A stretch of 64,000 bases of DNA. Source: Candidatus Dojkabacteria bacterium (lineage in GTDB: Bacteria > Patescibacteriota > Dojkabacteria > B142 > OLB20). Under the pieces are notes generated by a model. The model had not been told where the DNA came from. It worked only from the letters and a program-made list of their open reading frames with translations, and did not search any database. How positions within the stretch are numbered: position 1 is the first letter of the stretch; every line of letters begins with the position of its first letter. This document shows, piece after piece, positions 11,555 through 59,711 of this stretch. The stretch spans positions 12,141 through 76,140 of the forward strand of contig JBHHUN010000001.1 of NCBI GenBank assembly GCA_046753765.1. The letters run 5' to 3'. The translations under genes and the position numbers were made by a program.

Positions 11555-12163
11555 ATGTCCAAACTACCGTCTTCGGTACAAAAACTGATCGAACATTTTG
11601 GTCGATTTCCGGGTGTTGGTCCCAAGTCAGCTGCAAGGATGGTCTTCTACTTATTAAACTCCCCGACAGATAGAACAGACGAGCTGGTTGGAGCGATTGA
11701 TGAGATGAAGTCTAGTATTGGGTTTTGTGAAATCTGCAACAATCTGGCAGAAAACGATGCTCACTGTTTGATCTGTTCCGATACCGAGCGTAGAGCTAAC
11801 CAATTGATGGTCGTTGAGGATGTTCTTGACCTTATCGCATTTGAAAGAACAGGTGATTACCTTGGTAAGTACCACGTCCTGGGCGGTGTAATATCACCGG
11901 TTCTTGGCATAGGTCCGGAGGACATCAACCTTACAGGTCTTTCCAAGAGGATTAATCTGCACAAGGGTGAGCTTGAGTTGATAATAGCAACGAATCCGAA
12001 TTTAGAGGGTGAGGCTACTGGTATGTATATAAAGGAAGAGCACAAAGACAAGGATGGAATCACTATAACCAGGATCGCCCGGGGTGTTCCGACAGGTGCC
12101 GACCTCGACTATGCTGATCGATTAACTCTCAAAAGAGCTCTTTCTGGGCGCACCTCACTTTAG
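11555..12163 (+). CDS. recR: Recombination protein RecR
   Basis: HhH (FPGVGPKSAARM). C4 zinc finger (CEICNNLAENDAHCLIC). Toprim (VVEDVLDLIAFERTG). Confidence 0.9.
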   Translation: MSKLPSSVQKLIEHFGRFPGVGPKSAARMVFYLLNSPTDRTDELVGAIDEMKSSIGFCEICNNLAENDAHCLICSDTERRANQLMVVEDVLDLIAFERTGDYLGKYHVLGGVISPVLGIGPEDINLTGLSKRINLHKGELELIIATNPNLEGEATGMYIKEEHKDKDGITITRIARGVPTGADLDYADRLTLKRALSGRTSL

Positions 12164-12317
12164 ACTCACGTGACAAGTATTCCCCCCATAGACGAAATGG
12201 GTATTATCCTGTAATAATACAGGTATGTAGTTTTCTGTGTTCACTAAACTCCGAGGATGTATTGTTATTTACTACACAATACTTCCAATTATATCTCTCG
12301 CGAGTTAGAATATCTGT

Positions 12318-13775
12318 ATGTTTAAATTCTACAATACGCTAAATAGAAAAAAGGAAAGTTTCACGGTGGAGCATGAGGGAAAAGTGTCAATGTACAACTG
12401 TGGGCCCACTGTATATTCCAGGCTTACAATTGGTAACTTACGAACTAATGTTTTTTCTGACTTACTTAGACGCTCATTAGAGTACGTTGGTTTCGAAGTG
12501 AAGCAGGTAATGAACATTACTGATGTTGGCCACCTGACTATGACCGATGAGCAGAAGAGAAAAAATGTTGATGCTGAGGTGACTGATACTGACGATGGTG
12601 TGGATCGCATGGAAAAGGCAGCGAAGAGAGACAATATGACAGTGTGGGAGGTCGCCAGCCACTACACAAAACTGTTCGTTGCGGATATGGATGAATTGAA
12701 CATTAAGCGACCACATGTGATGCCAAGGGCCACAGACCATATTGCCGAGCAGGTTACGATGATCAAGCAACTGATTGACAAAGGATATGCTTATGTTACG
12801 AAAACTGCGGTGTACTTTGATACCTCAAAATTCGCTGCTTACAGTCATCTTGCGGGACAAGACCTAAATGAGAAGCAGCAAGCTGTCCGCAATGATGTAG
12901 AACAAGATGAAACAAAAAGGCATCCTGCAGACTTTAGATTGTGGCAACTCAATAGGCCTGACCATGCGATGCAGTGGGATTCGCCCTGGGGGAAGGGTTT
13001 TCCTGGGTGGCACATTGAGTGTTCTGCTATGTCGCTCAGGTATCTGGGGCAACCCATAGATATTCATACGGGGGGAACAGACCATATCCCCGTGCATCAT
13101 ACAAACGAGATAGCCCAGTCAGAGGCGGCCACAGGCTCGAAATTCGTTAATTACTGGCTGCATGGAGCCTTTCTTACTGTTGATAACAAGCGCATGGGGA
13201 AAAGTCTCGGTAATGCATATACCCTTGCCGATGTTGAAGCAGAGGGTTTTGATCCACTTGACCTGAGGTATTTCTACCTGACTGCACACTACAGGCAGAT
13301 ATTAAATTTCACCTGGGAGGCGTTAGGTGCAGCAAGTGCAAGGCTCGTGAAGCTTGAAGGTGCTGTTGAGCAGTGGAGGCGTGAGAGTGGAGGCAGATCG
13401 GGGCAGATATTAAATGTATACAAAGATAAGTTCGTGGCTGCTATAAGTGATGATCTGAATATTCCAAAAGCTTTGGGAGTGGTTTCAGAGTTATTGGATG
13501 CAGATGAGAAAGCAGAAGACAGATTGGCTACATTGCTTGATTTTGATAAAGTTCTTGGGCTTGGGCTCTATAAGATCAATCTCTCAGAAGAGCAAAGAGA
13601 GGATATTGAGACTCTAGTCTCAGAAAGAAAAGATTTGCGCCATCAAAAGCAATGGAAAAAGGCCGATGCCATTCGTGACGAGTTGTTGACAAAGTATTCT
13701 GTGGAGCTTGATGATACAGATACTGGCACACAGTGGCGATGGGTACGCCCAAAAAGAAATAATAAAGAGTTATGA
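12318..13775 (+). CDS. cysS: Cysteinyl-tRNA synthetase with a non-canonical HIGH motif
   Basis: CysRS signatures are present: CGPTVY, WHIECSAMS, PVHHTNEIAQSE and a DALR-2-like C-terminus. Where HIGH is expected the sequence reads TIGN (YSRLTIGNLRT). The KMSKS position reads RMGKS. Confidence 0.8.
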   Translation: MFKFYNTLNRKKESFTVEHEGKVSMYNCGPTVYSRLTIGNLRTNVFSDLLRRSLEYVGFEVKQVMNITDVGHLTMTDEQKRKNVDAEVTDTDDGVDRMEKAAKRDNMTVWEVASHYTKLFVADMDELNIKRPHVMPRATDHIAEQVTMIKQLIDKGYAYVTKTAVYFDTSKFAAYSHLAGQDLNEKQQAVRNDVEQDETKRHPADFRLWQLNRPDHAMQWDSPWGKGFPGWHIECSAMSLRYLGQPIDIHTGGTDHIPVHHTNEIAQSEAATGSKFVNYWLHGAFLTVDNKRMGKSLGNAYTLADVEAEGFDPLDLRYFYLTAHYRQILNFTWEALGAASARLVKLEGAVEQWRRESGGRSGQILNVYKDKFVAAISDDLNIPKALGVVSELLDADEKAEDRLATLLDFDKVLGLGLYKINLSEEQREDIETLVSERKDLRHQKQWKKADAIRDELLTKYSVELDDTDTGTQWRWVRPKRNNKEL

Positions 13776-15232
13776 TGTCTATTAGTAAAATCAAGGAGGA
13801 AATTCCGGACTACGTGTACAGGGTAGCAGATAAGCTTTTAGACAGTGGCTTTGAGGCCTTTCTTGCGGGCGGTGCCGTGAAGGATTTACTCCTTGGGAGA
13901 GAGCCGAAGGATTATGACCTCGCTACAGACGCGATTCCGAGGCAGGTAGAAAAGATCTTCCCGGGTTCAGTCGCAACAAACGCTAGGTTTGGAACGGTTC
14001 TGGTCATCATGGATGATAAGCAGGGAGAACGGTTTGATGTAGAGGTAACAACGTATCGCAAAGAAGAGGAATATGTTGGAGGAAGGTGGCCTTCAAAGGT
14101 GGAGTTCACTAGTGAGATCGAGCAGGACCTTTCAAGAAGGGACTTTACTATCAACGCAATGGCCTTGAATCTGGCAAGGATTAACTCTCCTAGTGTGACT
14201 ACCGAGGAGTTGCTTATTGATCCATTTGGAGGTCAGGATGATCTCATTAAAGCTAAGCGGTTACGGGCGGTCAGGGATCCCTTAGAACGCTTTTCTGAAG
14301 ATGGACTGAGAGGATATAGAGCATGTAGATTGGCTGCTGAGCTTGGGTTTGAGATTGATTCCAATACTTTTGGAGCCATAAGCTCAACACTTCATATTGC
14401 CAGAAAGATATCTATTGAAAGGGTGCGAGATGAGCTGATCAAGCTTCTGCAGTACGCACCAAAGCCTTCGGTTGGTATCGAACTCATGCGTGAATCTGGA
14501 TTACTTGAGCTATTTTTGCCCGAACTGTTGGAGTTGAGAGGGATTGAGCAACCTGAATGGCACGTTGAAGATGTCTATAACCACAGTTTGAATACCCTTG
14601 ATATGGCTGAGGATTCTATTAAATTGGCTTCTTTACTTCATGATGTAGGGAAGGGGCGTACCAGGTCTGAGGATGAGAAGGGTGTTCACTTTTTCAGTCA
14701 TGACGTTGTGGGTGCTGAGATGACGCGAGAGATCCTCACAAGACTGAGATTTCCGAAAAGGGTTGTTGAAAAGACTGCTTCGTTGGTTCGCTGGCACATG
14801 TTTTATTATCCTTCTGCCGATTGGCGTAAAGATAATGAGGTCGATAATTCTTTGCTCAAGTCTTCCGGAGGGTGGACTGATGGTGCAATAAGAAGGTTTA
14901 TCAAAAATGTTGGTGTAGAGCTTATTGAGGACCTGTTTCGACTTAGGATAGCCGACGCAGCATCAAATCCAAAATCAGTTTTTAACCCTTTGGAAATCCA
15001 GGCCCTAGAAAACAGAATATCAGAGGTTAGGGCAAAAGAGATGGTGTTAAAAATATCTGATCTTGATATCTCGGGGGAAGACCTTAAGGGTTTGGGGATA
15101 AAGTCTGGTCCGGTGATGGGAAATATATTGAACCAATTACTGGATCGCGTTATAGATGAACCGTTCTTAAATGAGCGCGGAAAACTGCTTGATATTGTAA
15201 CTGAGTTACGTAAAGGAATTGACACTGAGTAA
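13772..15232 (+). CDS. cca: CCA-adding tRNA nucleotidyltransferase with HD domain
   Basis: Pol-beta NTase head (GGAVKDLLLGREPKDYDLAT). HD motif (LLHDVGKG). ATGA overlap with cysS. Confidence 0.8.
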   Translation: MMSISKIKEEIPDYVYRVADKLLDSGFEAFLAGGAVKDLLLGREPKDYDLATDAIPRQVEKIFPGSVATNARFGTVLVIMDDKQGERFDVEVTTYRKEEEYVGGRWPSKVEFTSEIEQDLSRRDFTINAMALNLARINSPSVTTEELLIDPFGGQDDLIKAKRLRAVRDPLERFSEDGLRGYRACRLAAELGFEIDSNTFGAISSTLHIARKISIERVRDELIKLLQYAPKPSVGIELMRESGLLELFLPELLELRGIEQPEWHVEDVYNHSLNTLDMAEDSIKLASLLHDVGKGRTRSEDEKGVHFFSHDVVGAEMTREILTRLRFPKRVVEKTASLVRWHMFYYPSADWRKDNEVDNSLLKSSGGWTDGAIRRFIKNVGVELIEDLFRLRIADAASNPKSVFNPLEIQALENRISEVRAKEMVLKISDLDISGEDLKGLGIKSGPVMGNILNQLLDRVIDEPFLNERGKLLDIVTELRKGIDTE

Positions 15233-18303: not shown

Positions 18304-21300
18304 TTGCACACTGTCTTTCGTATATCAAAATTGAAACGCTTTTGTAGTCAAGATTTTGTACACTGGCTGGAAACCAGTAAAGGGTTTGTATTTTTTCTTG
18401 TTTTCATCATTTCAGTATCCCCCTGGTTGTATCTTTTTGTTAATCCCCAATCTGTTTCCGCGGATGAATGGTTTAGTGACTCCTGGGCATACAGAAAGGC
18501 AATAGATATTTCTGGCAACGCATCTGATTTGACCGACATTCAGTTTCAGGTAACCGGGGTCGATACCCAGGCGCTGTTCAACAGTGGCAAAGTGCAAAGT
18601 TGGTGCGAGGATATCCGTTTCACTAACCGCAATGGTCAACTTCTCGACTACTGGATTGAAGATGACGGCACTGACTGTGACGCCGACACTAGTACAGATT
18701 TCTGGGTTAAGCTGGACAGGGCTGAATCAGAAGGGACAAGGATTTTTATGTACTACGGCAATCCACTTGCAAGAGCCTACCAGTCAGGAAGCAGAACTTT
18801 TGATTTCTTCTCAAGTTTTGACGAATGGTATGACGAGGACTGGAAATTCAGAATAAGGCTTACCATTGACCATACGAAAGTTGAAGAAACAGTAGAGGAC
18901 TTTCCTGTTTATGTTGACCTGTCTGATCTCCCCGCTTCGTTTTTTAGTAATGTCCAAAGCGATGGTAGTGACATAGTAGTCACGAGGGTCGAGGATGCAG
19001 CGAAGCTATCAAGAGAGGTTGTCGCGATTAATACCGGCGGAAGTACCGGTGAACTTTGGTTTAGCGCCCCAAAACTATATACGCAGACAGATACCAGTTT
19101 CTACATCTACTATGGTAACGCTTCTGCAACAGAAACAAACAATTCCGGTACTTGGAATTCAAACTATGATCTGGTTTTTCATATGAATGAAGATCCTTCT
19201 GTTAGTACAGATGGAGATTGTGGTGGGGGGACTGATGAGGTGTGCGACTCCACTGTCAATAATAATGATGCGGATTCAAATGGCGGTATGACCACTGGTG
19301 ATCTTGTGGGTGGGCAGTTAGGGAGTGGAATCGATTTCGATGGTGGGGACGATTATTTGTCGATGAATGATGAATCTTCATCTGCCTTCACATATTCAGC
19401 TTGGTATAAGACTATAAATGAAACTGGAACTAAAATGATCCTGCAGACCAGTAACGGTCATTTACGCCTGCAGAATAATAATCATTTATTTAGTAATTTC
19501 GATAGCAGGAATGGGACAGGAAGTACTCACGAGGCTGCGATTTTAGGAAATGCAACTCAAGATATCTGGCATCATATAGCTATGTCAGTCACGTCCGGAC
19601 ATGTTGTCCAGGTTGTTCATGACGGTACTTCAATCTATAATACAACTCCTCCAACAGGATCTTCAACCTCAAACTATGCAAATGGGAAGGTAGGTGTTCG
19701 ATACCGAACTGCCCCCTCGGCAAATTTCTACGATTATTTTGAAGGGGTTCTTGATGAAGTACGAGTTGTTAATACAAACTTAGGATCAAATTGGATAAGC
19801 ACAGAGTACAACAACCAGAGCAGCCCAGGTACTTTCTACGGAATCAGCTCACAAGAAAGGAATGTACCTGTCTTTAGTAGTCCTGACTCCTGGTACAACG
19901 AAGCGTGGGCCAAGAGAGTTAAAGTTACTGTAAATAACTCAAAAGTAGATGAGGACGTAACAGGATTTCCGGTGTATCTGGATCTATCTCTTCTGGGAAC
20001 GAGTTTCTGGAACAATGTTGATGCGCAGGGCGACGATATTGTGGTAACTTCCGGTGACGGTGCCACAAAACTAGCACGGGAATTGGTTACAATTGATACA
20101 TCCGGAAAGACAGGAGAGCTGTGGTTTAACTCTGACCTCTCGAGCACGGTTGATACGGATGTTTACATCTATTATGGAAACGCTTCCGCAACTGAAACCA
20201 ACGATACATCAACTTGGAACAGTAACTTCCAGACAGTACACCATCTCGAAGAAGACCCCGGCGGCGTAGCACCACAGATGTCAGATAGTACATCAAATGG
20301 TTACAATGGTACTGCTAATGGTGGGATGACTAATGCCGACCAGGTTGCCGGCAAGATTGGGAACGCTTCTGACTTAGATGGTAACGATTTCTTTGCTACC
20401 ACCTATCAACCATCGGGCCAGACGGAGGTAAGTTTTTCTGCGTGGGTAAATCTGAGCACGAGCGGTATTGTATTTATAAATGGTTTCAATAGTGTCACAG
20501 ACGCATTTTACTTCTACCTGAGGGACTCTGACAATCTCCTTGGATGGGGTGTTGAAGGCGCAAATTTACAGGACCTCACCCAGACGTATGCACAGAGCGA
20601 GTGGCTATATGTCGTAGGAACATTTCAAAGTGGAACCACAAGTGGGAAGAAGATCTATTTAAACGGACAATTAGTAACATCTGCAACACAGACGGCAACG
20701 ATTACAGCCGCAACTGATTATGATATTGGTCAAAGATTCTCCGGAAACACTCTGACAGGAATGATGGATGAGACGAGGGTTGTAAACGCTGTCTTAAGCG
20801 GGAACTGGATATCAACCGAATATAGCAATCAAAATTCCCCATCAACCTTTTTTACGATTGGAAGTTCGGAGAGCAACTCTGCACCCCAGGCCAGTTGGTA
20901 CAACGGTGACTGGCAGTACAGGCAAAGGATAAGTATCCGGAACAGCCAGGTAGATACAGACCTTACAGACTTTCCTGTATATGTGGATCTCTCAAATATG
21001 GGTAGTGACTTCTTCCGGGAAGTTAAAAGTGACGGAAGTGATATTGTTGTGACCAGCTCTGATGGGTTTACTAAGCTGTCAAGGGAACTGGTGGCTATAG
21101 ATACCAGTGGAAGCACAGGCGAGCTGTGGTTTAAGGCGCCAAACCTTTATGATGCGTCAAACACCAGTTTTTATATCTACTTCGGGAATTCTTCCGCCGC
21201 AGAGATAAACTCTACTTCAACCTGGAAGTCAGATTACAAAGGGATATGGCATTTAGAAGGCGTATTCACTGATTCCACAACGAATGCCAACAATGGGACT

Positions 21301-24300
21301 GATAGCGGATCGAATGCAGCCACGGGGAGATTTGGGAACGCCAGGAGTTTTCCTGATACAGCTGATTTGGTCACTTTGGGAACAAGTGGGTACAGTGCCA
21401 GCAACACATATACTGTTGCAACATGGTTGAAACCAACAATAGATATAGATGCTCACGCATGGGAGGGTGGGAGTGTACTTTCTGCTCCTTCGCTGGAGGG
21501 GACCAGTGATTCGCTTTCATACTATGTAAACGGTGTCACGTCGATTAGTACCGGGAGTTTGACGAGCGGGCAGTGGTATTACGTTGTAGCTGTTTACGAC
21601 AAGGCCGGCACAACGCAAGAACTGTATGTTGACGGTGTATCAAAGGGAACGAATTCACTTGATATCACGGATACGTTTGGTGGTAATTTCTACCTTGGCA
21701 ACAGAGGGCTTGCTGGTGGTGGTGGGACTACGCGAAACTATGGAGGAACAATTGACGAGGTCAGGGTTACTAATACAGTTGTTAGTGGCACATGGATCTC
21801 AACAGAATACAACAACCAAAGCAGTCCAGGTAATTTTTATGGTGTTGGTGGAATTGAAAGTAGCAGCAACTGGAACAGCTTTGGAGGGCCTGATGTTTCT
21901 GGAGGCACAGCAACGCTCTCCTCTGTAGGGGATACAGAGGGTCTTGTCACAAGCACCCAGTTTTTAGAAAACTCTAAACTGATAGTCAGGGCTACCCAGA
22001 GCTCAACCAGTCTCAACACTGCAAGGTTGGGTTTCTCAAACAGTGGAATCAGCAGTACGTTCACAAATGATGATTCTGCAAGTTACCTGTTTGATTCGAG
22101 TACAGGAGCAAATTTCGAAATCTCCAATAGCAATGACGGCACTGCAACTGACGGCGCAGGCACCACAGTTGAGGATACTGTCACTCACGATCTGGAGGTC
22201 GGGTGGAGAAATGCAGCAGTAGATTTCAGGCTTGATAACGGAGCAGAGGGTACTGTCTCCACTAACCCACCCAATGAAAATATGAACGTAAGACTTGAGG
22301 TAGATACGACAGATGAGAGTGTAAGCATTGAATGGGTGGCCGTGGGCAACTATGACAGTAATCCGCCTAACAGTCAAGTGATAAACAGCGAAGAGGTTGG
22401 AGGTGGAGAGCTTGTCTACCTTCCGATGGACGAAAGCAGTGGTCAGAACGTAAACAATCTTGGAAGTCAGGCGGACATTATTGGTTTACTGGGAACAAAT
22501 GCTTTGTCTGAAAGCTCAGACCCATCCAGGGTAGATGAGTGTGCGAAAGGGAACTGTCTGGATTTTGATGGAACAGACGACGTTGTAACTGTCGCGGACG
22601 ATGACAGGATAGATTTTGATACAACAGATGACTTTACCATCACGACTTGGGTAAAGATAGAAGCTGCCACAAGTGAAAAAGTAATCTTTTCAAAACGGGT
22701 TCATACGGGTGCTACACCCGAAGAGGGGTACTTTGCCAGATTGAGAGCCACAGGTGAGGTTGAGTTCGGTATTGAACAGGCGAGCAATACCACAACTGAG
22801 GTTGGTGGTGTCGGAACTACGATTATTGACGATGACAGATGGCATCAAGTCGCATTCGTAAGAGATGTCACAGCTGACATGGTCAGGTATTATCTTGATG
22901 GGGTTCTTGAAGAAGAGCTTACAGATACCACAACTGCAACGCTAGCAAACACAGAGGATTTGCTGCTAGGCAAAAGGTCAGGAACAAATCCGGATTACAT
23001 GAATGGGCAGATAGATGAATTCAGGATATTCAGGAAAGCACTTACTGCAGCAGAAATACTTGGTCAGTTTAATGAGAGTGGTTCTGTTCTGGGGACTGAT
23101 ACTAATAATCTACGGGATGGATTAGTAGGTTGGTGGAAATTGGATGAGGAAAGCTGGAACGGAACAAGTAATGAGGTTGTAGATTACAGTGGGCTGGACC
23201 ATCACGGTAATCGCAATGGGAACGCAACAACAACTGGTGGACACTTTGGGAATGCAGGAACGTTTGATGGTAATGGCGACTATGCAGGGTTTGCAGATAC
23301 AGTAGATCACGAGCCGGCTTCAACAGTTACGGTTTCTGCATGGGTATACCCAAACAATGTAGCAACTTGGCATCAAGTAGTAGTGAAGAGGTACTCCGAA
23401 GCCAGTAATCCATGGGACTCATATATGCTTGCCTCAACTGGTGTTGGAGCAAGTAATAAGTGGAGGTTTTGTGTGTCTAACGGGACTTCTGGCAGCTCAG
23501 TATGTGCGGATGATACTGAAGTAATCACTGCAAACACATGGGTCCATCTTGTAGGAAGATACGATGGAAGTGATGTAAAGCTGTTTGTTGATGGTGTGGA
23601 AAAGTCATCTGTGAGCAAGACAGGAAACATCGGATACTCTTCAATTGGGTTACGAATTGGGATCTCAACTCCAACACAACCGACCCAGTGTATGAATGGA
23701 AAGATTGATGAAGTGCGTCTGTATAACCGTGCTTTATCATTAACAGAAATTGAAACGCTCTACGAATACAGGGCCCCTTCAGTAGCACACTGGAAATTTG
23801 ACGAGACCTCTGGGACGACAGCGTATGATTCAAGCATCAACGGATACAATGGAACCCTCACCAATATGGCCGAGGCTGATCATATTGATGGGAAGGTCGG
23901 GGGAGCCCTTGATTTTGATGGAATTGATGGCTATGTCACTGCTGGAGATAATCTTGTAGGCCTAACATTTCCTGTAACTGTCAGTTTCTGGATCAATCCG
24001 GATGCCACAGAGGGCGCCAATATTTTCTCGACAGATTCGTGGAATGTCGCAGCAAACTATGCTGGGATTGCTATAGTTCTGTCTGCGACTAATCAGGTCA
24101 ATCTTATGTATGGTGATGGTACCGGTTCTGGGTCGGCAGACAGAAGATCAGGTACAACAACGGCAACTCTATCAACCGGAACTTGGCATCACGTTACGGG
24201 GATAATCAGGGGAGCGACCGATATGGAAGTGTTCATCAATGGAGTATCTTCTGCACTGACATATTCTGGAACGGGAGGATCGATGGTGCAGACAAGTGAT

Positions 24301-26457
24301 CCCATTCTCATTTCTACAACGGTGCTTCCACTTGACGGTCAGTTAGATGATATAAGGGTCTACGACTACGAACGTACTCCTGCAGAGATTGGATCGGAGT
24401 ACGCACAGGGAGCGAGGGCTGCAGTTCCACAGAACGAGTTAGTTGGTCACTGGAAGATGGATGAGTCAAGTTGGAATGGCACAGCTGATGAGGTCATAGA
24501 TTCCAGTGGACTCGGAAATCATGGGACATCTTCAAACGGAGCCACGACAACAGTTGGAAAGATCAGTAGGGCGGGTATCTTTGATGGGAGCAATGATTCG
24601 GTCACAGTGGCCGATGTGAATGAACTGGACATGGGGACAAATGATTTCTCGATCACAGCCTGGGTAAAAACAGATAATGCAGGGGCGGATATGCGTGTTA
24701 TCTTTGGGGATGGCAATATGCAAGGTGGTGGAGACAATTCCTACGCTGTTTTATTACATGATAATAAGCCTGCTTTTGAACTTTACGACAACACGACTTA
24801 TTTAAGCAGAACTACTACTGCAAGTAGCACAACCGTAAACGATGGGAAGTGGCATCATTTAGCTTTTGTTTTTGACCGGAGCGGATCCGGGTCTATCTAT
24901 ATCGATGGCGTTTTTGATAAAGCCACGAGCATATCTTCAATTGGAAGTTTGGACAACACAAGAGGAGGGGCGATTGGAAATCAACCTACCAGAGCGTTTT
25001 ATTATGCTGGGCAGATCGACGAACTGAGGGTTATCCGCAGAGTCTTAAGTGATGAAGAGGTCTATAGCTTGTATGACTCTTTTTACGATGTAACAGTCTC
25101 CGAACGAAAACAAGCGGGAGAGGAAGTGCTCTATCTGCCTCTAAACGAAAAGTCGGGCTTGACGGCGGAAGACATCAGTGGTAATGGCTACAACGGAACA
25201 CTTAACAACACAGAAGACAGTGACCATCGTTTTGGGAAAATTGACTATTCAGTAGATTTGGACGGATCAAATGAGTACATAAGTGTCTCAGATAATAATG
25301 ATTTCTCTCCCTCAGTGACCGGAGCTGTGACAATGAGTGCCTGGATTAGGCCGGATACAATTGTCGCAGGAAACACATACATACTTACAAAAGGAGACAC
25401 ATCAAACTACGAGTATGCAATATGGCTTGGTACCGGTGGAGAGGTTGGTTGCACAGCATGGACACTCGCAGGCTTAAATCACCTTGCTGTCTCAGGCTCA
25501 ACATCAACCAGTGCAAACGAGTGGCATCATGTTGCCTGTGTCATTGAGCACAATTCGGAGATGAATATATATTTGGATGGCGCATCGGAAGGAACAGATA
25601 GTACACCTTCATCTACGATGGGTAACGGTACTGCTGATGTTCAGATTGGGAAGAGAGGAGATGATGTGGGGAATGAATTTGACGGCAGGGTAGATGAAGT
25701 AAAAATCTGGGATTTTGCCCTGAGTACCCGACAGATAGCAATGGAGTACAACGGCGGAAAACCTGTTAGTCACTGGCGGATGGATAGGCGAGAAGGAAAT
25801 ATGGCATATGACTACTCTGAAAATGGAAACCATACTCAATTGATTAATATGGCTCCAGCTTCCGACTGGCTTTCGGGGACAAGTTGCAGGATGAATGGGT
25901 GCTTAGACTTTGATGGTATTAACGACAGGCTTTGGGTAGCAGACGATGATCTCTTTGATGCGTCGCTAAACGATAGAAGTTATTCAGCATGGGTGAAGAT
26001 GCCATCTGATATCAGCGCCGGGATCGGTACTATCAGAGCGATTGTCTCAAAAGTGGCTCCATCTCTGCAGGAGCCACGATTTGACGTTGACGTTCTCAAA
26101 TCTTCTGGCTTCGTTGTGTTTGAAATTGAGTCCTCAACAAACGGAGATCTTACAAATATCACTGGAACAACCGACCTTAGGGACAACCAATGGCATCATA
26201 TCGTAGCGGTCAGAGATCGCAAGAATGATGAACTGAGGCTTTACGTTGACGGTGCGCAGGATGCGTCTCCTGTGACCGATGGAGACCAGGATGCATCAAA
26301 TAGTGGAGCTCTTTACATAGGTGATTGGGCCCCCGATCTTAGTAACGGAAGGAACTTTCTGGGACAGTTGGATGAAGTGAAGGTTTTTAATTACGCATTG
26401 ACTGATGCCGATGTACTTCTAGATTATAACCTGGGGTCAGCAATCAGATATGAGTAA
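18304..26457 (+). CDS. Giant membrane-anchored surface protein (2717 aa): 4 DUF2341-like repeats plus about 10 LamG/ConA-like lectin domains
   Basis: Single ORF of 8.15 kb. A non-ATG start is needed: TTG at 18304, and the first in-frame ATG lies after the TM helix. TM anchor FVFFLVFIISVSPWLYLF. DUF2341-like repeats have the pattern W.YR..I.I...DFPV.VDL...GsDI.V....LSRELV.IDT.G.TGELWF...YIYYGN. LamG_3-like units repeat (LVGWWKLDE...DSSGngnnGT...DFDG.DDYV...SAWV...WHHVA...LYVDGV...IDEVR.YNRALS..EI). The stop overlaps the start of the next gene (ATGAGTAA). Confidence 0.75.
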   Translation: MHTVFRISKLKRFCSQDFVHWLETSKGFVFFLVFIISVSPWLYLFVNPQSVSADEWFSDSWAYRKAIDISGNASDLTDIQFQVTGVDTQALFNSGKVQSWCEDIRFTNRNGQLLDYWIEDDGTDCDADTSTDFWVKLDRAESEGTRIFMYYGNPLARAYQSGSRTFDFFSSFDEWYDEDWKFRIRLTIDHTKVEETVEDFPVYVDLSDLPASFFSNVQSDGSDIVVTRVEDAAKLSREVVAINTGGSTGELWFSAPKLYTQTDTSFYIYYGNASATETNNSGTWNSNYDLVFHMNEDPSVSTDGDCGGGTDEVCDSTVNNNDADSNGGMTTGDLVGGQLGSGIDFDGGDDYLSMNDESSSAFTYSAWYKTINETGTKMILQTSNGHLRLQNNNHLFSNFDSRNGTGSTHEAAILGNATQDIWHHIAMSVTSGHVVQVVHDGTSIYNTTPPTGSSTSNYANGKVGVRYRTAPSANFYDYFEGVLDEVRVVNTNLGSNWISTEYNNQSSPGTFYGISSQERNVPVFSSPDSWYNEAWAKRVKVTVNNSKVDEDVTGFPVYLDLSLLGTSFWNNVDAQGDDIVVTSGDGATKLARELVTIDTSGKTGELWFNSDLSSTVDTDVYIYYGNASATETNDTSTWNSNFQTVHHLEEDPGGVAPQMSDSTSNGYNGTANGGMTNADQVAGKIGNASDLDGNDFFATTYQPSGQTEVSFSAWVNLSTSGIVFINGFNSVTDAFYFYLRDSDNLLGWGVEGANLQDLTQTYAQSEWLYVVGTFQSGTTSGKKIYLNGQLVTSATQTATITAATDYDIGQRFSGNTLTGMMDETRVVNAVLSGNWISTEYSNQNSPSTFFTIGSSESNSAPQASWYNGDWQYRQRISIRNSQVDTDLTDFPVYVDLSNMGSDFFREVKSDGSDIVVTSSDGFTKLSRELVAIDTSGSTGELWFKAPNLYDASNTSFYIYFGNSSAAEINSTSTWKSDYKGIWHLEGVFTDSTTNANNGTDSGSNAATGRFGNARSFPDTADLVTLGTSGYSASNTYTVATWLKPTIDIDAHAWEGGSVLSAPSLEGTSDSLSYYVNGVTSISTGSLTSGQWYYVVAVYDKAGTTQELYVDGVSKGTNSLDITDTFGGNFYLGNRGLAGGGGTTRNYGGTIDEVRVTNTVVSGTWISTEYNNQSSPGNFYGVGGIESSSNWNSFGGPDVSGGTATLSSVGDTEGLVTSTQFLENSKLIVRATQSSTSLNTARLGFSNSGISSTFTNDDSASYLFDSSTGANFEISNSNDGTATDGAGTTVEDTVTHDLEVGWRNAAVDFRLDNGAEGTVSTNPPNENMNVRLEVDTTDESVSIEWVAVGNYDSNPPNSQVINSEEVGGGELVYLPMDESSGQNVNNLGSQADIIGLLGTNALSESSDPSRVDECAKGNCLDFDGTDDVVTVADDDRIDFDTTDDFTITTWVKIEAATSEKVIFSKRVHTGATPEEGYFARLRATGEVEFGIEQASNTTTEVGGVGTTIIDDDRWHQVAFVRDVTADMVRYYLDGVLEEELTDTTTATLANTEDLLLGKRSGTNPDYMNGQIDEFRIFRKALTAAEILGQFNESGSVLGTDTNNLRDGLVGWWKLDEESWNGTSNEVVDYSGLDHHGNRNGNATTTGGHFGNAGTFDGNGDYAGFADTVDHEPASTVTVSAWVYPNNVATWHQVVVKRYSEASNPWDSYMLASTGVGASNKWRFCVSNGTSGSSVCADDTEVITANTWVHLVGRYDGSDVKLFVDGVEKSSVSKTGNIGYSSIGLRIGISTPTQPTQCMNGKIDEVRLYNRALSLTEIETLYEYRAPSVAHWKFDETSGTTAYDSSINGYNGTLTNMAEADHIDGKVGGALDFDGIDGYVTAGDNLVGLTFPVTVSFWINPDATEGANIFSTDSWNVAANYAGIAIVLSATNQVNLMYGDGTGSGSADRRSGTTTATLSTGTWHHVTGIIRGATDMEVFINGVSSALTYSGTGGSMVQTSDPILISTTVLPLDGQLDDIRVYDYERTPAEIGSEYAQGARAAVPQNELVGHWKMDESSWNGTADEVIDSSGLGNHGTSSNGATTTVGKISRAGIFDGSNDSVTVADVNELDMGTNDFSITAWVKTDNAGADMRVIFGDGNMQGGGDNSYAVLLHDNKPAFELYDNTTYLSRTTTASSTTVNDGKWHHLAFVFDRSGSGSIYIDGVFDKATSISSIGSLDNTRGGAIGNQPTRAFYYAGQIDELRVIRRVLSDEEVYSLYDSFYDVTVSERKQAGEEVLYLPLNEKSGLTAEDISGNGYNGTLNNTEDSDHRFGKIDYSVDLDGSNEYISVSDNNDFSPSVTGAVTMSAWIRPDTIVAGNTYILTKGDTSNYEYAIWLGTGGEVGCTAWTLAGLNHLAVSGSTSTSANEWHHVACVIEHNSEMNIYLDGASEGTDSTPSSTMGNGTADVQIGKRGDDVGNEFDGRVDEVKIWDFALSTRQIAMEYNGGKPVSHWRMDRREGNMAYDYSENGNHTQLINMAPASDWLSGTSCRMNGCLDFDGINDRLWVADDDLFDASLNDRSYSAWVKMPSDISAGIGTIRAIVSKVAPSLQEPRFDVDVLKSSGFVVFEIESSTNGDLTNITGTTDLRDNQWHHIVAVRDRKNDELRLYVDGAQDASPVTDGDQDASNSGALYIGDWAPDLSNGRNFLGQLDEVKVFNYALTDADVLLDYNLGSAIRYE

Positions 26458-29400
26458 GGCAAGGTCAAAACTTAGAACGTATCCTCTCAGGCATTGGCGC
26501 TGGCTTTGGAGCACAAAGGTTCCCGTGATATTCCTCGTACTGATGTTCCTGATTGGTGCTGTATTTGGACATCTCATCACACCCCGTAAAGCAAAAGCAG
26601 AATGGTACAACGATCTCTGGGCGTACAGAAAACAGATCGATATCTCAGGTAACGCGAGCGACCTAACTGACATTCAGTTCCAGGTAACCGGAATAGACAC
26701 TAGTGCTCTGTACTCGGTCGGTAAACTCCAGGTAGATTGTCAAGATATTAGATTTACTGATGTTCAAGGGAATCTTTTGCCTTACTGGGTCGAGGATGAT
26801 GGGATTGACTGCAGTGACGATACGACAACAGATTTTTGGGTGAGACTTCAGAGAGCTGAATCAGAAGGCACAACCATCTTCATGTACTATGGGAATCCCG
26901 ATGCTGGAGCGGGAGGGTCTGGAGATAAGACATTCGAGTTTTTCGATGACTTTTCTGAATCGATCGTAGACTGGTACAGTTCGCTGTGGTCATTCAGAAT
27001 CAGGCTGAGCGTTCAGAAATCAAAGGTTGATGCGGCACTCACTGATTTCCCGGTTTTTGTTGACCTCTCGGATTTACCAGGTCACTTCTTCAGTAATGCA
27101 GATAGTGGCGGTAATGATCTTGTTGTCACATCCTCAGACGGAACGAAACTGGATAGAGAGTTGGTGAGTATTGATACCACAGCTAGAACTGGTGAGCTGT
27201 GGTTCAGGGGGGATCTCAATGCTACTACGGATACAGACTTTTTCATCTACTATGGCAATGGGTCAGCATCTGAGACAAATGCGACTGGGACGTGGACTTC
27301 AGCCTATGCAGTTGTTCAACATCTGAATGAGGATCCGTCGGGAGGTGCTCCTCAGATGCAGGATAGTACCTCTAATAACAATGACGGGACTTCCAATGGA
27401 ACCATGGCCACTAGTGACCTGGTCAATGCAGTAGTGGGAGACGGTCTTCAGTTTGATGGTTCCAATGATTACATCTCCTTAAGCGGAGTAAATGCTACGA
27501 ACAAACTGACAGTTTCAGGATGGTTCTATCTTGAGGAATACGGCGGAGCATGTGATGGTGGGATTACAAGGGCTAATGCGTCAAATCCATACGGAGGCTT
27601 CCTACTTTCTCCTTGTTCGAACGGTACGCCAGCCATATTTAATTTTGCTGTCGCTAACTCAACAACCTGGCAGGAGGTACTAAGCAGTACAGATAAGCTC
27701 ACCGGAAGATGGTATTATGTCGTGGGAGTTTACGATGCATCGGTCAGTAGTATGAAGATATACTTCGATGGGGTCCAAGATAACTCTGCAAGTGCAACCG
27801 GGAATGTGAGAGACAACAGTGAAGCATTGCGTATAGGTCTGAATCAAACTAGTTACATGAAAGGGACTATTGATGAGGTCAGAGTTACCAGCGATGCAAA
27901 ATCGGCCAATTGGATCGCTGCGGAATACAGTAATCAAATTGACCCAGGTAACTTTTATCATCTGGGAGAACCTGAGACTGAAACATCGAGAGTCCTGCGC
28001 CCACGTCAGTGGACGGATACAGGTTCACCTGCATATACCTCAGGTGCCGTTAGCTTTTCATATGCACTAGGACAGGAAGGGATCCTCTCGACTTCACAAT
28101 TTAGCTCTGATTCGAAACTAGTTTTCAGGAGTACTGAGTCAGCAACAAGTCTGGATGATGGAAGAGTAGGTTTATCTAATACAGCACTTACGACTTCGTA
28201 TAATACTGATGATGCGGCAAGCTATCTGTTTGATTCATCCACAGGGGCAAACTTTGAACGGGAAGCGGTCAATGAGGGTATAGCAACTAGTTCTGCTGGC
28301 TCTACAATTGAGGATACATCCGCGCACGACTTTGAGATCGGTTGGACAGCAACAACGGTGGATTACAGGATTGACAATGCGACGGATGGATCGATAGTCA
28401 CTAACCTTCCTGATGAAAGCATGAATATCAGGATAGAGGTTAATAATACCAGTGAGAGCTTATCTGTAGACTGGGTGGCTGTTGCAAGCTATAACTCAGA
28501 TCCACCTGATACGCAAAATGTCGGGACCGAAGAAATCGGACCGGGACCGTTAGTTTATCTGAAGCTTGATGAAGGGCAGGGGCAGACAGCTAGTAATTCT
28601 GGCAGCGGTGGATCACAGCTTGACGGATATCTTGGTGTAGATAGTTTCGGCACAAGCAACGATCCATCCTGGACAGATGAGTGTATTTCTGGCGGCTGCC
28701 TGAAATTTGATGGCGTGGACGATGCATTTGAAATCCCAGACAATGACCTGATCGATTTCGGTACGGACGATTTTAGCGTCTCAATGTGGATGAACTTCGG
28801 TGATCAAGCCGGAGGTACGCACAACTACTCAATTGCGTTTATGAAGTCTGACAAGACAAGTTCTCCTTATGCAGGTATGACTGCTTTTGTGGACACACCA
28901 TATAGTTCGCCAAATGGAGGTGTTCAATTCAGGCTCGATAGCAACAATGAGGCAGAATCTACAACAACAGGAATGGATGATAGTCGTTGGCGGCACTATG
29001 TGTTTGTAAGGAGTGGGACAACTTTGGAGATATACATTGACGGGATTCTGAATAAATCACAATCTGTGTCAAGTATTGATATTTCAGACACTGCAAATCT
29101 ACGGTTTGGTGCGAATCAGCCGGTCGTTACAGATCAGAATTTTCAGGGCATGATGGATGAAATCAAAGTGTATGACTATGCCATCGATCAAGAGAAAGTG
29201 CTTGCGGAGTTAAACACTTATGCAGATGTTCTCGGGACTGACACCAATGGGCTTCGTGATGGCCTGGTTGGCTGGTGGAAGATGGATGAAGTCAGTGCGA
29301 ATACATGTTCAGGGGGTAATAATGACTCGTGTGATTCTTCTGGAAGTGGTAATGATGCAGCTTGGGCAAATAATGTTGCTGCAACTGCAGGTATTCTGGG

Positions 29401-55840: not shown

Positions 55841-56206
55841 ATGGGGAAGAAACTACTAATTGTTGAGGACGAGAAGCCCATAGCACGCGCGTTGGAGCTG
55901 AAGCTTTCTAACTCGGGGTTCGAAGTGACTGTAGCCCTAGATGGCCAGAAGGCGATTGATCTGGTAGATAACGGTGAGTTTGACCTCATCCTACTGGATC
56001 TGGTTATGCCAAATCTGGATGGCTTTGGATTTCTCACGCAGCTGAAAGAGAAAGGGAAAAAGATCCCCGTTATTGTAACTTCCAACCTAAGCCAGGATGA
56101 AGACATCGAGAAGGCCAAACAGATGGGGGCAGTTGGATACTACGTGAAATCTAACACACCGCTCGCTGATATCGTAGATAAAATCAATCAATATTTCGCT
56201 AAATGA
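55841..56206 (+). CDS. Stand-alone response-regulator receiver domain (CheY/PilH-like)
   Basis: 121 aa. Receiver motifs (LIVEDEKP; DLILLDLVMPNLDG; VIVTSNL...K). No output domain. ATGA overlap with pilB. Confidence 0.8.
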   Translation: MGKKLLIVEDEKPIARALELKLSNSGFEVTVALDGQKAIDLVDNGEFDLILLDLVMPNLDGFGFLTQLKEKGKKIPVIVTSNLSQDEDIEKAKQMGAVGYYVKSNTPLADIVDKINQYFAK

Positions 56207-59261: not shown

Positions 59262-59263
59262 CG

Positions 59264-59710: not shown

Positions 59711-59711
59711 G

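What the first reader, a model, noticed from the sequence alone, without database searches (positions are those of the whole stretch)
12318..13775. CysRS with HIGH replaced by TIGN and KMSKS by RMGKS while the zinc/cysteine-binding site is intact
The protein is clearly cysS: CGPTVY, WHIECSAMS, PVHHTNEIAQSE and a DALR-2-like C-terminus. At the position of the class I HIGH signature, however, the DNA (12421-12456) reads ...TAT TCC AGG CTT ACA ATT GGT AAC TTA CGA ACT, giving YSRLTIGNLRT, so both His are lost. The KMSKS loop reads RMGKS.

HIGH and KMSKS are the ATP-binding signatures of class I aaRS, which is established knowledge. Loss of both His is unusual for a presumably essential synthetase. 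It could mean a non-canonical catalytic solution, a paralogue with another role alongside a second cysS elsewhere, or a sequence error.
Basis: partly seen in the sequence, partly recalled or inferred. Interest (0 to 1): 0.55.

Follow-up and report, generated by a model that had tools for sequence, protein, structure and literature searches.

The report
Cysteinyl-tRNA synthetase with altered signature motifs
This is the ordinary cysteine-charging enzyme of a tiny-genome (Dojkabacteria/CPR) bacterium, but it belongs to a natural lineage in which the two textbook ATP-site motifs have changed together (HIGH to TIGN, KMSKS to RMGKS), a conserved and apparently compensated variant rather than an error or a broken gene.

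Summary
ORF 12318-13775 (+) is a full-length cysS (TIGR00435 434 bits, cut-off 340). It reads T37-I-G-N40 where E. coli has H37-I-G-H40, and R292-M-G-K-S where E. coli has KMSKS. The zinc/cysteine site is intact (C28, W231, C235, H260, E264).

It is not a sequencing error. The pair TIGN+RMGKS is conserved in all 11 closest Dojkabacteria/WS6 homologues, with different synonymous codons, and recurs in many other CPR lineages. "Both His lost" overstates it. Asn at position 4 (HIGN) is the norm for this CysRS subfamily, so only the first His is unusual. TIGN is exactly the HIGH-equivalent of bacterial TrpRS.

Loss of the first His is coupled to the KMSKS loop. Among 341 relatives, 60 of 80 non-His proteins have Arg at loop position 1, against 27 of 261 His proteins. 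In 120 closely related Bathyarchaeia CysRS, 0 of 69 non-His proteins keep Lys there, against 25 of 51 His proteins.

Best reading: a functional housekeeping CysRS in which Arg292/Gly294 take over the role of the lost His. That mechanism is inferred, not shown. No second cysS was found, but no whole genome could be scanned. I rate it a new variant of a known enzyme, of moderate interest.

The parts
12318..13775 (+). cysS, cysteine--tRNA ligase, 485 aa
   Evidence: ORF. PF01406 3e-95; TIGR00435 433.9 bits, cut-off 340. Identical to P0001, 'MAG: cysteine--tRNA ligase [Candidatus Dojkabacteria bacterium]'. AF2 pLDDT 90.9; best PDB match 1u0b_B with TM 0.79/0.83.
12399..12416 (+). CGPTVY; C28 is the first Zn ligand (E. 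coli C28)
   Evidence: C28, G29, T31, V32 and Y33 invariant in alignment A1
12426..12437 (+). [quoted passage not shown]
   Evidence: Gap-free alignment to HIGN of 3sp1 and HIGH of 1li5 and the MAFFT map. Codons ACA ATT GGT AAC. N-cap of helix 38-56.
12519..12536 (+). TDVGHL motif (T68-L73) that defines this CysRS subfamily (E. coli has TDIDDK); H72 invariant
   Evidence: T68, D69, G71 and H72 invariant in A1. All 80 non-His relatives have G-H here. H72 invariant in 120 Bathyarchaeia proteins.
12540..12581 (+). lineage-specific 14-residue insertion (aa 75-88)
   Evidence: Gap against 3sp1. Present in 40/80 non-His and 9/261 His relatives. Lower model confidence, pLDDT 69-83.
12606..12608 (+). 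R97, equivalent of E. coli K73 (first Lys of KIIK); co-varies with T37 in CPR proteins
   Evidence: not coupled in the Bathyarchaeia set
13008..13022 (+). WHIEC: W231 (E. coli W205) and Zn ligand C235 (E. coli C209)
13095..13109 (+). HHTNE: Zn ligands H260 (E. coli H234) and E264 (E. coli E238)
13191..13205 (+). RMGKS (R292-S296), in the place of KMSKS; second Lys (K295) and Ser retained
   Evidence: M293, K295 and S296 invariant in A1; codons CGC ATG GGG AAA AGT
13215..13217 (+). A300 (E. coli F274 of SLGNF); co-varies with T37/R292 in CPR proteins
13428..13739 (+). C-terminal helical (DALR_2-like, aa 371-400) and anticodon-binding (CysS_C-like, aa 428-474) region
   Evidence: Weak Pfam matches of 22.5 and 20.3 bits. 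TIGR00435 aligned to residue 474. Strands 462-475 in the model, and TM 0.79 to the tRNA complex 1u0b.
13772..13775 (+). ATGA overlap of the cysS stop with the start of cca (tRNA nucleotidyltransferase, 13772-15232)
   Evidence: the same cysS-cca adjacency in L081 and L085

Best explanation
The gene encodes what appears to be the organism's only cysteinyl-tRNA synthetase, and it is functional. It belongs to a natural variant of the 'TDVGHL/HIGN' CysRS subfamily. In this variant the first histidine of the HIGH signature has been replaced by Thr, giving TIGN, the form bacterial TrpRS uses. The KMSKS loop has become RMGKS.

Proposed mechanism (inferred). In class I synthetases the first HIGH histidine and the first basic residue of the KMSKS loop both help hold the phosphates of ATP in the transition state. 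Here the guanidinium of Arg292, on a loop made more flexible by Gly294, supplies the contact that His37 used to give. Thr37 only caps the helix and may give a weaker hydrogen bond. Asn40, Lys295, Ser296 and the zinc site work as in other CysRS.

What is shown: the identity of the gene, the intactness of every other catalytic residue, conservation of the variant, and its statistical and evolutionary coupling to the loop change. What is inferred: that the enzyme is active, and that Arg292/Gly294 compensate for His37.
For: Gene identity and integrity
- Passes the cysS equivalog threshold and aligns over its full length.
- Confident CysRS fold.
- Zn ligands, W231, T68, G39, N40, M293, K295 and S296 are invariant or nearly so.

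Housekeeping setting
- The array topA-rpsB-tsf-frr-rseP-dnaX-ybaB-recR-cysS-cca-RNase J-like-ychF is conserved in the window, in the complete genome CP129475.1 and in a WS6 OLB20-type contig.
- Cys codons are in use, including the RecR and TopA zinc fingers.

Conservation
- 11 of 11 nearest homologues have T[IV]GN+RMGKS.
- Thr and Arg are kept through synonymous codon changes.

Coupling
- In 341 relatives, R292 occurs in 60/80 non-His against 27/261 His proteins, and G294 in 63/80 against 31/261. Fisher p ~1e-28, not corrected for phylogeny.
- A rough NJ+Fitch count gives 20 His-loss events. Six are tied to Arg, while Arg lineages make up ~5% of branches.
- In 120 Bathyarchaeia CysRS (>=75% identical to the query, the TIGN Bathyarchaeia CysRS L016), Lys at loop position 1 is present in 25/51 His proteins, with 9 K<->R switches. 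It is present in 0/69 of the more divergent non-His proteins. The states form an ordered series HIGN/KMAKS - HIGN/RM[AS]KS - HIGN/RMGKS - TIGN/RMGKS.
- Seven TIGN/TVGN proteins that lack Arg have [AP]MHKS, i.e. a His inside the loop.

Precedents
- TIGN is the functional HIGH-equivalent of TrpRS (PMC10201369, PMC3684856).
- In the CysRS paralogue MshC, the first Lys of KMSKS and a HIGH histidine bind the same oxygen of a phosphate mimic (PMC9736012).
- His45 of HIGH and the KFGKT loop of TyrRS are described as catalytic and transition-state stabilising (PMC1950313).
Against: - No activity data exist for any TIGN CysRS.
- The coupling is not absolute. 20 of 80 non-His relatives keep Lys at loop position 1, and 12 of them also lack Arg97. 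TrpRS combines TIGN with KMSKS. Arg is therefore not strictly required for life without the first His.
- The trees are neighbour-joining on divergent sequences, and the Fisher tests ignore shared ancestry.
- In the Bathyarchaeia set the His/non-His split is a single event.
- No coordinates were available to check that Arg292 can reach the phosphate site.
- A second cysS elsewhere in the genome was not excluded by a whole-genome scan.
Confidence: 0.7

Rival explanations
1. Near-neutral drift. In this CysRS subfamily the first HIGH histidine contributes little. This could be because the invariant His72 of the TDVGHL motif, or other groups, already cover its role. On this view it is lost repeatedly without any need for compensation, and the association with RMGKS is mostly shared ancestry.
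For: Non-His residues (T, Q, S) appear in many separate places of the tree, about 20-26 parsimony events. 20 of 80 occur with a normal K-type loop. Close pairs differ only at this residue: L032 TIGN/KMSKS vs P0124 HIGN/KMSKS at 70% identity, and P0037 QIGN/KMSKS vs P0035 HIGN/KMSKS at 69%. All non-His proteins have His72.
Against: Non-His proteins with a K-type loop are almost all singletons. The diversified, long-lived non-His clades carry RMGKS. In Bathyarchaeia, Lys at loop position 1 flips 9 times in the His clade and never appears among 69 more divergent non-His proteins. The non-Arg exceptions there carry a His in the loop.
Confidence: 0.2
2. A specialised paralogue. On this view the TIGN protein has a role other than general tRNA-Cys charging, for example an MshC-like ligase, a CysRS*-like enzyme for a special tRNA, or a regulator. 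A canonical cysS elsewhere in the genome does the housekeeping.
For: Known CysRS paralogues exist: MshC and CysRS* (PMC9437257). Other genomes labelled Dojkabacteria carry HIGN-type genes, namely L001 in CP129477.1 and P0034/BDQ04791.1. No whole-genome scan was possible.
Against: - Scores above the cysS equivalog cut-off and far below the MshC cut-off, 200 vs 485 bits.
- Keeps the C-terminal anticodon-binding region that MshC and CysRS* lack.
- Sits in a conserved housekeeping array, 4-nt overlapped with cca.
- No second copy in 64 kb.
- None of the HIGN-type hits related to L001 comes from a contig of the same length as a TIGN-bearing contig. Conversely, no TIGN-type hit comes from the L001 genome. 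This suggests the two types are alternatives, not partners.
Confidence: 0.06
3. Sequencing or assembly error, or a decaying gene.
For: The source is a metagenome-assembled genome; read support could not be inspected.
Against: - Intact 485-codon ORF.
- The motif pair is identical in 11 independently assembled relatives at 62-65% identity, and present in dozens more.
- Synonymous codon variation over conserved Thr and Arg.
- A two-base difference between His and Thr codons.
- All other catalytic residues are invariant.
Confidence: 0.01
4. The changes reflect loss or retuning of the PLP-dependent cysteine persulfide synthase side activity reported for CysRS, rather than anything about aminoacylation.
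For: In E. coli CysRS, K73, K76, K266 and K269 bind PLP. Each K->A mutant loses persulfide synthesis while keeping translation (PMC5660078). Here the equivalents of K73 and K266 are both Arg (R97, R292), which cannot form a Schiff base. Both co-vary with T37 in CPR proteins.
Against: This does not explain the loss of the HIGH histidine. In Bathyarchaeia, TIGN/RMGKS proteins mostly keep Lys at the K73 position. Arg292 also occurs in many His-bearing proteins. It is compatible with, not an alternative to, the main explanation.
Confidence: 0.1

Closest known systems
Bacterial/archaeal CysRS of the TDVGHL/HIGN type (e.g. Borrelia burgdorferi CysRS, PDB 3SP1)
   Same: Same family, domain order and length. 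Gap-free alignment over the HIGH region; Asn at motif position 4; TDVGHL and DDGxD[KR]M motifs; Zn ligands; KMSKS-loop position.
   Different: The first motif residue is Thr instead of His. The loop is RMGKS instead of KMSKS. There is a 14-residue insertion after TDVGHL.
E. coli CysRS (PDB 1LI5, 1LI7, 1U0B)
   Same: Best structural match (TM 0.79/0.83 to the tRNA complex). All four Zn ligands, W205 and T68 equivalents conserved. Identical numbering up to residue 68.
   Different: HIGH/KMSKS against TIGN/RMGKS. TDIDDKIIK against TDVGHL...DRMEK. K73->R, K266->R, S268->G, F274->A.
Bacterial TrpRS (TIGN + KMSKS)
   Same: Uses exactly T-I-G-N as the HIGH-equivalent, so Thr at this position is compatible with efficient amino-acid activation in a class I fold (PMC10201369, PMC3684856).
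   Different: Different subclass (Ic, dimeric) and not homologous beyond the Rossmann core. TrpRS keeps Lys at KMSKS position 1. The resemblance is convergent.
TyrRS (HIGH + KFGKT)
   Same: A class I enzyme with Gly at loop position 3. Its HIGH His45 and the mobile KFGKT loop are the classic transition-state stabilisers (PMC1950313; details from my own knowledge of the Fersht mutagenesis work).
   Different: Keeps the first His and the first Lys. No natural His-less form was compared here.
MshC (Cys:GlcN-Ins ligase), the CysRS paralogue
   Same: Same catalytic fold and Zn site. Its structure shows KMSKS Lys1 and a HIGH His contacting one phosphate-mimic oxygen, which supports the proximity argument (PMC9736012; Foldseek TM 0.70).
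   Different: MshC lacks the anticodon-binding domain. This protein scores 200 bits against an MshC cut-off of 485.
Bathyarchaeia CysRS cluster (L016, L019, P0384-P0503)
   Same: The same TIGN+RMGKS pair, in an archaeal group only ~49% identical to the window protein. Intermediates HIGN/RMGKS and HIGN/RM[AS]KS, and the canonical HIGN/KMAKS, all lie within the same tight cluster (about 75-96% identity to the query L016; >=67.5% pairwise among the non-His members).
   Different: Lys rather than Arg at the K73-equivalent. Tyr/Phe rather than Ala at position 300. Further variants exist: [AP]MHKS and SIGN/RMGRS.

Membership tests
Cysteine--tRNA ligase (CysRS; TIGR00435 / PF01406) | Sequence scores above the curated family threshold over the full length | tested here: met
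   TIGR00435 433.9 bits (cut-off 340), residues 3-474. PF01406 319 bits (cut-off 27). Two narrower NCBIfam cysS models (NF011108, NF011107) are matched below their own cut-offs.
Cysteine--tRNA ligase (CysRS; TIGR00435 / PF01406) | Class I Rossmann-fold catalytic domain with the CysRS architecture | tested here: met
   AF2 pLDDT 90.9, pTM 0.86. The top 13 PDB hits are CysRS chains, with MshC next (ranks 14-16); 1u0b_B has TM 0.79/0.83.
Cysteine--tRNA ligase (CysRS; TIGR00435 / PF01406) | Zinc/cysteine-binding residues (E. coli C28, C209, H234, E238; W205) | tested here: met
   C28, C235, H260, E264 and W231 aligned and invariant
Cysteine--tRNA ligase (CysRS; TIGR00435 / PF01406) | HIGH signature with histidine at position 1 | tested here: not met
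   T37-I-G-N40. Gly and the position-4 Asn (the subfamily norm) are kept.
Cysteine--tRNA ligase (CysRS; TIGR00435 / PF01406) | KMSKS signature | tested here: inconclusive
   RMGKS: the first Lys is Arg and the first Ser is Gly. Met, the second Lys (K295) and the final Ser are kept.
Cysteine--tRNA ligase (CysRS; TIGR00435 / PF01406) | C-terminal helical and anticodon-binding domains | tested here: met
   Full-length alignment to cysS models and to 1li5/3sp1 up to residue ~474. The model has helices 333-460 and strands 462-475. Pfam domain models are only borderline: DALR_2 22.5/22 and CysS_C 20.3/23.
Cysteine--tRNA ligase (CysRS; TIGR00435 / PF01406) | ATP-dependent charging of tRNA-Cys | not testable with these tools
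   Needs enzyme assays or complementation.
Cysteine--tRNA ligase (CysRS; TIGR00435 / PF01406) | Only cysS of the genome (housekeeping copy) | tested here: inconclusive
   No second copy in the 64-kb window. Conserved housekeeping synteny. No shared contig between TIGN-type and HIGN-type hits. Whole genomes could not be scanned.
MshC (mycothiol Cys ligase, TIGR03447) | Score above the family threshold; no anticodon-binding domain | tested here: not met
   200.2 bits against a cut-off of 485.1, matching only residues 77-398. A C-terminal tRNA-binding region is present.
CysRS* (SelC*-specific CysRS of Desulfobacterales) | Lacks the anticodon-binding domain; linked to selC*/selB* genes (PMC9437257) | tested here: not met
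   C-terminal domain present. The neighbours are recR and cca, with no tRNA gene in the window.

The most novel reading that the evidence does not exclude
TIGN/RMGKS CysRS, together with its relatives TIGN/[AP]MHKS and SIGN/RMGRS, would be a distinct catalytic solution for a class I synthetase. In it, the transition-state-stabilising group normally supplied by the first HIGH histidine has been moved to the KMSKS loop, as Arg at loop position 1 or His at loop position 3. This solution would have been reached along the same constrained mutational path, K->R, then S/A->G, then H->T (direction uncertain), independently in CPR bacteria and in Bathyarchaeia. That would amount to a natural double-mutant cycle for HIGH-KMSKS coupling.
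Probability: 0.4. Interest if true: 0.55.

Novelty: new variant of a known kind. Interest (0 to 1): 0.38.

Why it matters
HIGH and KMSKS are the defining signatures of class I aminoacyl-tRNA synthetases, and annotators and textbooks treat them as near-invariant. This case shows that an essential synthetase can lose the first HIGH histidine in whole lineages of CPR bacteria and Bathyarchaeia. It also shows that the loss is tied to specific changes in the KMSKS loop.

That gives enzymologists a ready-made set of natural intermediates for testing how the two motifs share the work of ATP activation: HIGN/KMAKS, HIGN/RMAKS, HIGN/RMGKS, TIGN/RMGKS, TIGN/AMHKS and SIGN/RMGRS.

It also warns against calling such genes pseudogenes or paralogues on motif grounds. 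It is not a new kind of system: the protein is a CysRS and is already annotated as such.

Tried and rejected
- **Alternative HIGH motif.** I looked for one elsewhere in the N-terminus. There is none; the alignments are gap-free from residue 1 to 73.
- **RNA leader or terminator around cysS.** Rfam found no match (E<=1) in 11900-14100. Promoter and terminator consensus hits do not exceed the shuffles.
- **tRNA genes in the window.** None, so tRNA-Cys could not be examined.
- **Second aaRS in the window as a control for HIGH conservation.** None found.
- **Genome-contig scan.** It could not be used to test for a second copy. It did reveal the Bathyarchaeia TIGN genes and the HIGN-type gene of Dojkabacteria CP129477.1.
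- **Synteny as an orthology test.** The HIGN-type genes of other Dojkabacteria (L001, P0034) lie in different neighbourhoods, so this says nothing either way.
- **Cluster-member look-up for taxonomy.** It gave only one useful name.
- **Bootstrap supports.** Values from my NJ run were lost on export. I rely on pairwise identities of close pairs instead.
- **Literature searches.** Searches for a described TIGN or HIGN CysRS, or for CPR aaRS motif variants, found nothing relevant. This covers the held library only.
- **His avoidance by the proteome.** Rejected: the protein has 16 His.
Full report
**1. What is in the sequence**

The ORF 12318-13775 on the + strand encodes 485 residues. It matches the class I CysRS catalytic domain (PF01406, E 3e-95). 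It exceeds the curated threshold of the cysS equivalog model TIGR00435 (433.9 bits against 340), aligned from residue 3 to 474. The same protein exists in public data as 'MAG: cysteine--tRNA ligase [Candidatus Dojkabacteria bacterium]' on a 113,719-bp contig (P0001).

- CGPTVY: aa 28-33
- TIGN: aa 37-40, window 12426-12437
- WHIEC: aa 231-235
- HHTNE: aa 260-264
- RMGKS: aa 292-296, window 13191-13205

The quoted DNA string is correct, but it lies at 12414-12446 rather than 12421-12456.

**2. Is TIGN really at the HIGH position?**

Yes. HMMER aligns residues 1-73 without a gap to E. coli CysRS (1li5) and Borrelia CysRS (3sp1). T37-I-G-N40 falls on H37-I-G-H40 and on H-I-G-N respectively.

A MAFFT map of 346 sequences gives the following E. 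coli -> window equivalences:
- C28=C28
- H37->T37
- H40->N40
- T68=T68
- K73->R97
- K76=K100
- W205=W231
- C209=C235
- H234=H260
- E238=E264
- K266->R292
- S268->G294
- K269=K295
- S270=S296
- F274->A300

The AlphaFold2 model is confident (pLDDT 90.9, pTM 0.86). It puts T37 at the N-cap of helix 38-56, immediately after strand 22-27 and the CGPTVY loop, which is where HIGH sits in class I enzymes. The best structural match is the E. coli CysRS-tRNA complex 1u0b_B (TM 0.79/0.83), followed by other CysRS, then MshC, then MetRS.

**3. One correction to the observation**

'Both His are lost' is true only against the E. coli motif. This protein belongs to the CysRS subfamily marked by TDVGHL instead of TDIDDK. 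In that subfamily the fourth motif residue is normally Asn. N40 is present in at least 90% of 54 aligned homologues, and HIGN is by far the commonest form among 341 relatives. The only unusual substitution in HIGH is therefore His37->Thr. [quoted passage not shown]

**4. Not an error, and not private to this genome**

All 11 nearest homologues (62-65% identity; Dojkabacteria and WS6 OLB20 where named) read T[IV]GN and RMGKS. T/Q/S-IGN with RMGKS continues through dozens of further hits. Those that carry a name are from Patescibacteria: WWE3, CPR3 and 'Patescibacteria group'.

The residues are held through synonymous change. Thr is ACA in the window, L081 and L085, ACG in L016, and ACC in L019, L049 and L032. 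Arg292 is CGC, AGA or CGG. His (CAY) to Thr (ACN) needs two base changes.

The protein has 16 histidines, so there is no general His avoidance. The window's proteins use cysteine (91 Cys in 19,314 residues, including the RecR and TopA zinc fingers), so tRNA-Cys must be charged.

**5. Genomic setting**

The gene lies in a housekeeping array: PBP2-dprA-topA-rpsB-tsf-frr-rseP-dnaX-ybaB-recR-cysS-cca-beta-CASP RNase-ychF, followed by giant surface-protein genes. The cysS stop overlaps the cca start by 4 nt (ATGA, 13772-13775). The same array surrounds the TIGN cysS of the complete 1,172,464-bp Dojkabacteria chromosome CP129475.1 (P0011, L081) and of a WS6 OLB20-type contig (P0006, L085). No T-box or other Rfam element and no convincing terminator precede the gene.

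**6. Is there a second cysS?**

- There is none in the 64-kb window (tblastn with E. coli CysRS).
- Other genomes labelled Dojkabacteria carry HIGN-type genes. These are CP129477.1 (L001, HIGN/KMAKS, 46% identical) and BDQ04791.1/P0034 (HIGN/KMGKS). They lie in different neighbourhoods.
- A search seeded with the L001 protein listed no hit from a contig of the same length as any TIGN-bearing contig. The search seeded with the window protein listed no hit from the L001 chromosome.

This is what one expects if the two types are alternatives, but it is not a whole-genome test. The question stays formally open.

**7. Distribution and coupling: first data set**

I aligned 346 sequences: 268 proteins translated loci, and E. 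coli. Of the 341 with both motifs aligned, 80 have T, Q or S at HIGH position 1.
- 60 of the 80 have Arg at KMSKS position 1, against 27 of 261 His-bearing proteins.
- 63 of the 80 have Gly at loop position 3, against 31 of 261 (Fisher p about 1e-28, uncorrected for phylogeny).
- Positions 97 (K->R, E. coli K73) and 300 (F->A) co-vary as well.

On a rough neighbour-joining tree that excluded these columns, parsimony needs about 20-26 changes between His and non-His. Six of 20 inferred losses occur on or after a K->R change, although Arg lineages make up only about 5% of His-state branches.

Close pairs show that the switch is recent and repeated:
- P0063 HLGN/RMGKS vs P0078 TLGN/RMGKS: 80% identical
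- P0051 HIGN/RMGKS vs P0084 QIGN/RMGKS: 71%
- P0061 HIGN/KMGKS vs P0056 QIGN/KMGKS: 72%
- P0124 HIGN/KMSKS vs L032 TIGN/KMSKS: 70%

The coupling is a strong tendency, not a law. 20 non-His proteins keep Lys, though almost all of these are singletons. The diversified non-His clades all carry RMGKS.

**8. Distribution and coupling: an independent replicate in archaea**

The genome scan turned up Bathyarchaeia CysRS with TIGN/RMGKS (L016, L019). They are 78-79% identical to a Bathyarchaeota HIGN/KMAKS protein (L033), yet only about 49% identical to the window protein.

A search seeded with L016 returned 120 proteins, all at least 75% identical to it. Their states are:
- HIGN with KMAKS (25), RM[AS]KS (10), RMGKS (15), TMSKS (1)
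- TIGN/TVGN with RMGKS (48), RMGRS (1), AMHKS (5), PMHKS (2)
- SIGN with RMGRS (13), RMGKS (1)

No non-His protein has Lys at loop position 1: 0 of 69 against 25 of 51.

On the tree, Lys and Arg interchange 9 times inside the His clade (mean identity 86.8%). Lys never appears in the more divergent non-His set (mean identity 79%). The only departures from Arg there are Ala or Pro, always accompanied by a His at loop position 3.

The states form an ordered series: HIGN/KMAKS - HIGN/RM[AS]KS - HIGN/RMGKS - TIGN/RMGKS. TIGN/KM[AS]KS is never observed. The direction is uncertain. With the outgroups used, the non-His forms are basal, but the sample was seeded from a TIGN protein.

The Zn ligands, W231, G39, N40 and H72 are invariant in all 120. 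These are working enzymes under purifying selection.

**9. How it most likely works**

The following rests on established class I enzymology, from my own knowledge of the TyrRS work of Fersht and colleagues. PMC1950313 summarises it as 'the catalytic His45' of HIGH and the K230FGKT234 mobile loop that 'stabilize[s] the transition state'. Both the first HIGH histidine and the first basic residue of the KMSKS-type loop act on the pyrophosphate part of ATP in the transition state.

In the CysRS paralogue MshC, a closed-loop structure shows the first Lys of KMSKS (K289) salt-bridged, and the HIGH His55 hydrogen-bonded, to the same oxygen of a phosphate mimic (PMC9736012). The two motifs therefore meet at the phosphate site in this fold.

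From this and the covariation I infer the following. Arg292, on a loop loosened by Gly294, supplies the interaction lost with His37. In a few Bathyarchaeia proteins a His at loop position 3 does so instead. Thr37 keeps the helix N-cap and perhaps a weak hydrogen bond, as in TrpRS. Everything else works as in other CysRS: Asn40, Lys295, Ser296, the zinc site and tRNA binding.

- Shown: identity, integrity, conservation and coupling.
- Inferred: activity and the compensating contact.
- I could not inspect model coordinates, so no distance supports the inference.

**10. Rivals**

- **Near-neutral loss of a dispensable His.** This is the main alternative. The K-loop exceptions, and the invariant His72 of TDVGHL in every non-His protein, speak for it. 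The Bathyarchaeia asymmetry and the short life of the K-loop non-His forms speak against it.
- **A specialised paralogue.** Unlikely. The protein passes the cysS threshold and fails the MshC threshold. It keeps the anticodon-binding region that MshC and CysRS* lack (PMC9437257). It also sits in a conserved housekeeping array.
- **Error or pseudogene.** Excluded in practice.
- **A side hypothesis.** The equivalents of two of the four PLP-binding lysines of E. coli CysRS (K73, K266; PMC5660078) are Arg here, so the reported persulfide synthase activity may be lost. This does not explain the His loss. In Bathyarchaeia the K73 position mostly stays Lys.

**11. Comparison with what is known, and novelty**

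The protein is a member of the CysRS family by every testable criterion except the canonical form of the two signatures. It works like a CysRS and most resembles the HIGN/TDVGHL type (3SP1). Its HIGH-equivalent is identical to that of TrpRS, by convergence.

I found no paper in the held library that describes TIGN, QIGN or SIGN forms of CysRS or their link to RMGKS. That is absence in that library only. Degenerate class I signatures are well known in other families.

I therefore rate it a new variant of a known kind, of moderate interest. It remains an ordinary essential enzyme doing, in all likelihood, its ordinary job.

Noticed in passing
window 18304-26457, 26450-32869, 33191-42742: Three consecutive giant ORFs of 2717, 2139 and 3183 aa. 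The first two carry 9 and 6 Laminin_G_3/ConA-like lectin repeats plus DUF2341. The third has no Pfam match. A giant ORF follows ychF at the same place in relatives L081 and L085. They are probably cell-surface proteins of an episymbiotic CPR cell.
   Followed up: partly
window 13772-13775: The cysS stop codon overlaps the start codon of cca (tRNA nucleotidyltransferase with HD domain) in ATGA. The cysS-cca adjacency is conserved in relatives, which suggests translational coupling of two tRNA-handling enzymes.
   Followed up: partly
window 12540-12581 (aa 75-88 of CysRS): A 14-residue insertion right after the TDVGHL motif. It is present in 40/80 non-His relatives but only 9/261 His-bearing ones. 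It is modelled with lower confidence, pLDDT 69-83. Function unknown.
   Followed up: partly
L049 (6001-7419) and proteins P0408, P0473, P0496 etc.: Bathyarchaeia CysRS with TIGN plus PMHKS or AMHKS. The basic residue at KMSKS position 1 is gone and a histidine appears at loop position 3, as if the His had moved from HIGH to the loop.
   Followed up: partly
proteins P0415, P0420, P0425, P0426, P0440, P0448, P0460, P0483 and others: Bathyarchaeia CysRS with SIGN plus RMGRS. Here even the second, normally invariant lysine of KMSKS is arginine, and some read SLRN instead of SLGN. There are 13 such clusters, with all Zn ligands intact.
   Followed up: partly
L001 (CP129477.1), L084 (P0034), versus window: Genomes all labelled 'Candidatus Dojkabacteria' carry three different CysRS types: HIGN/KMAKS, HIGN/KMGKS and TIGN/RMGKS. 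They are only 46-50% identical and lie in unrelated neighbourhoods. This points to deep divergence or gene replacement within the class.
   Followed up: partly
window 45682-47754 and 52657-53781: ORFs of 690 and 374 aa with no Pfam match at E<=1e-5.
   Followed up: no
L085 5210-6791 and 9446-10898: In this Logan-assembled relative, dnaX and cca are each split into two called genes. These are probably frameshift errors of that assembly rather than biology.
   Followed up: no
window 56203-62261: Type II/IV secretion ATPase (T2SSE) and platform protein (T2SSF with a C-terminal SH3 domain), followed by an 849-aa LVIVD-repeat protein. This is the pilus machinery typical of CPR bacteria.
   Followed up: no
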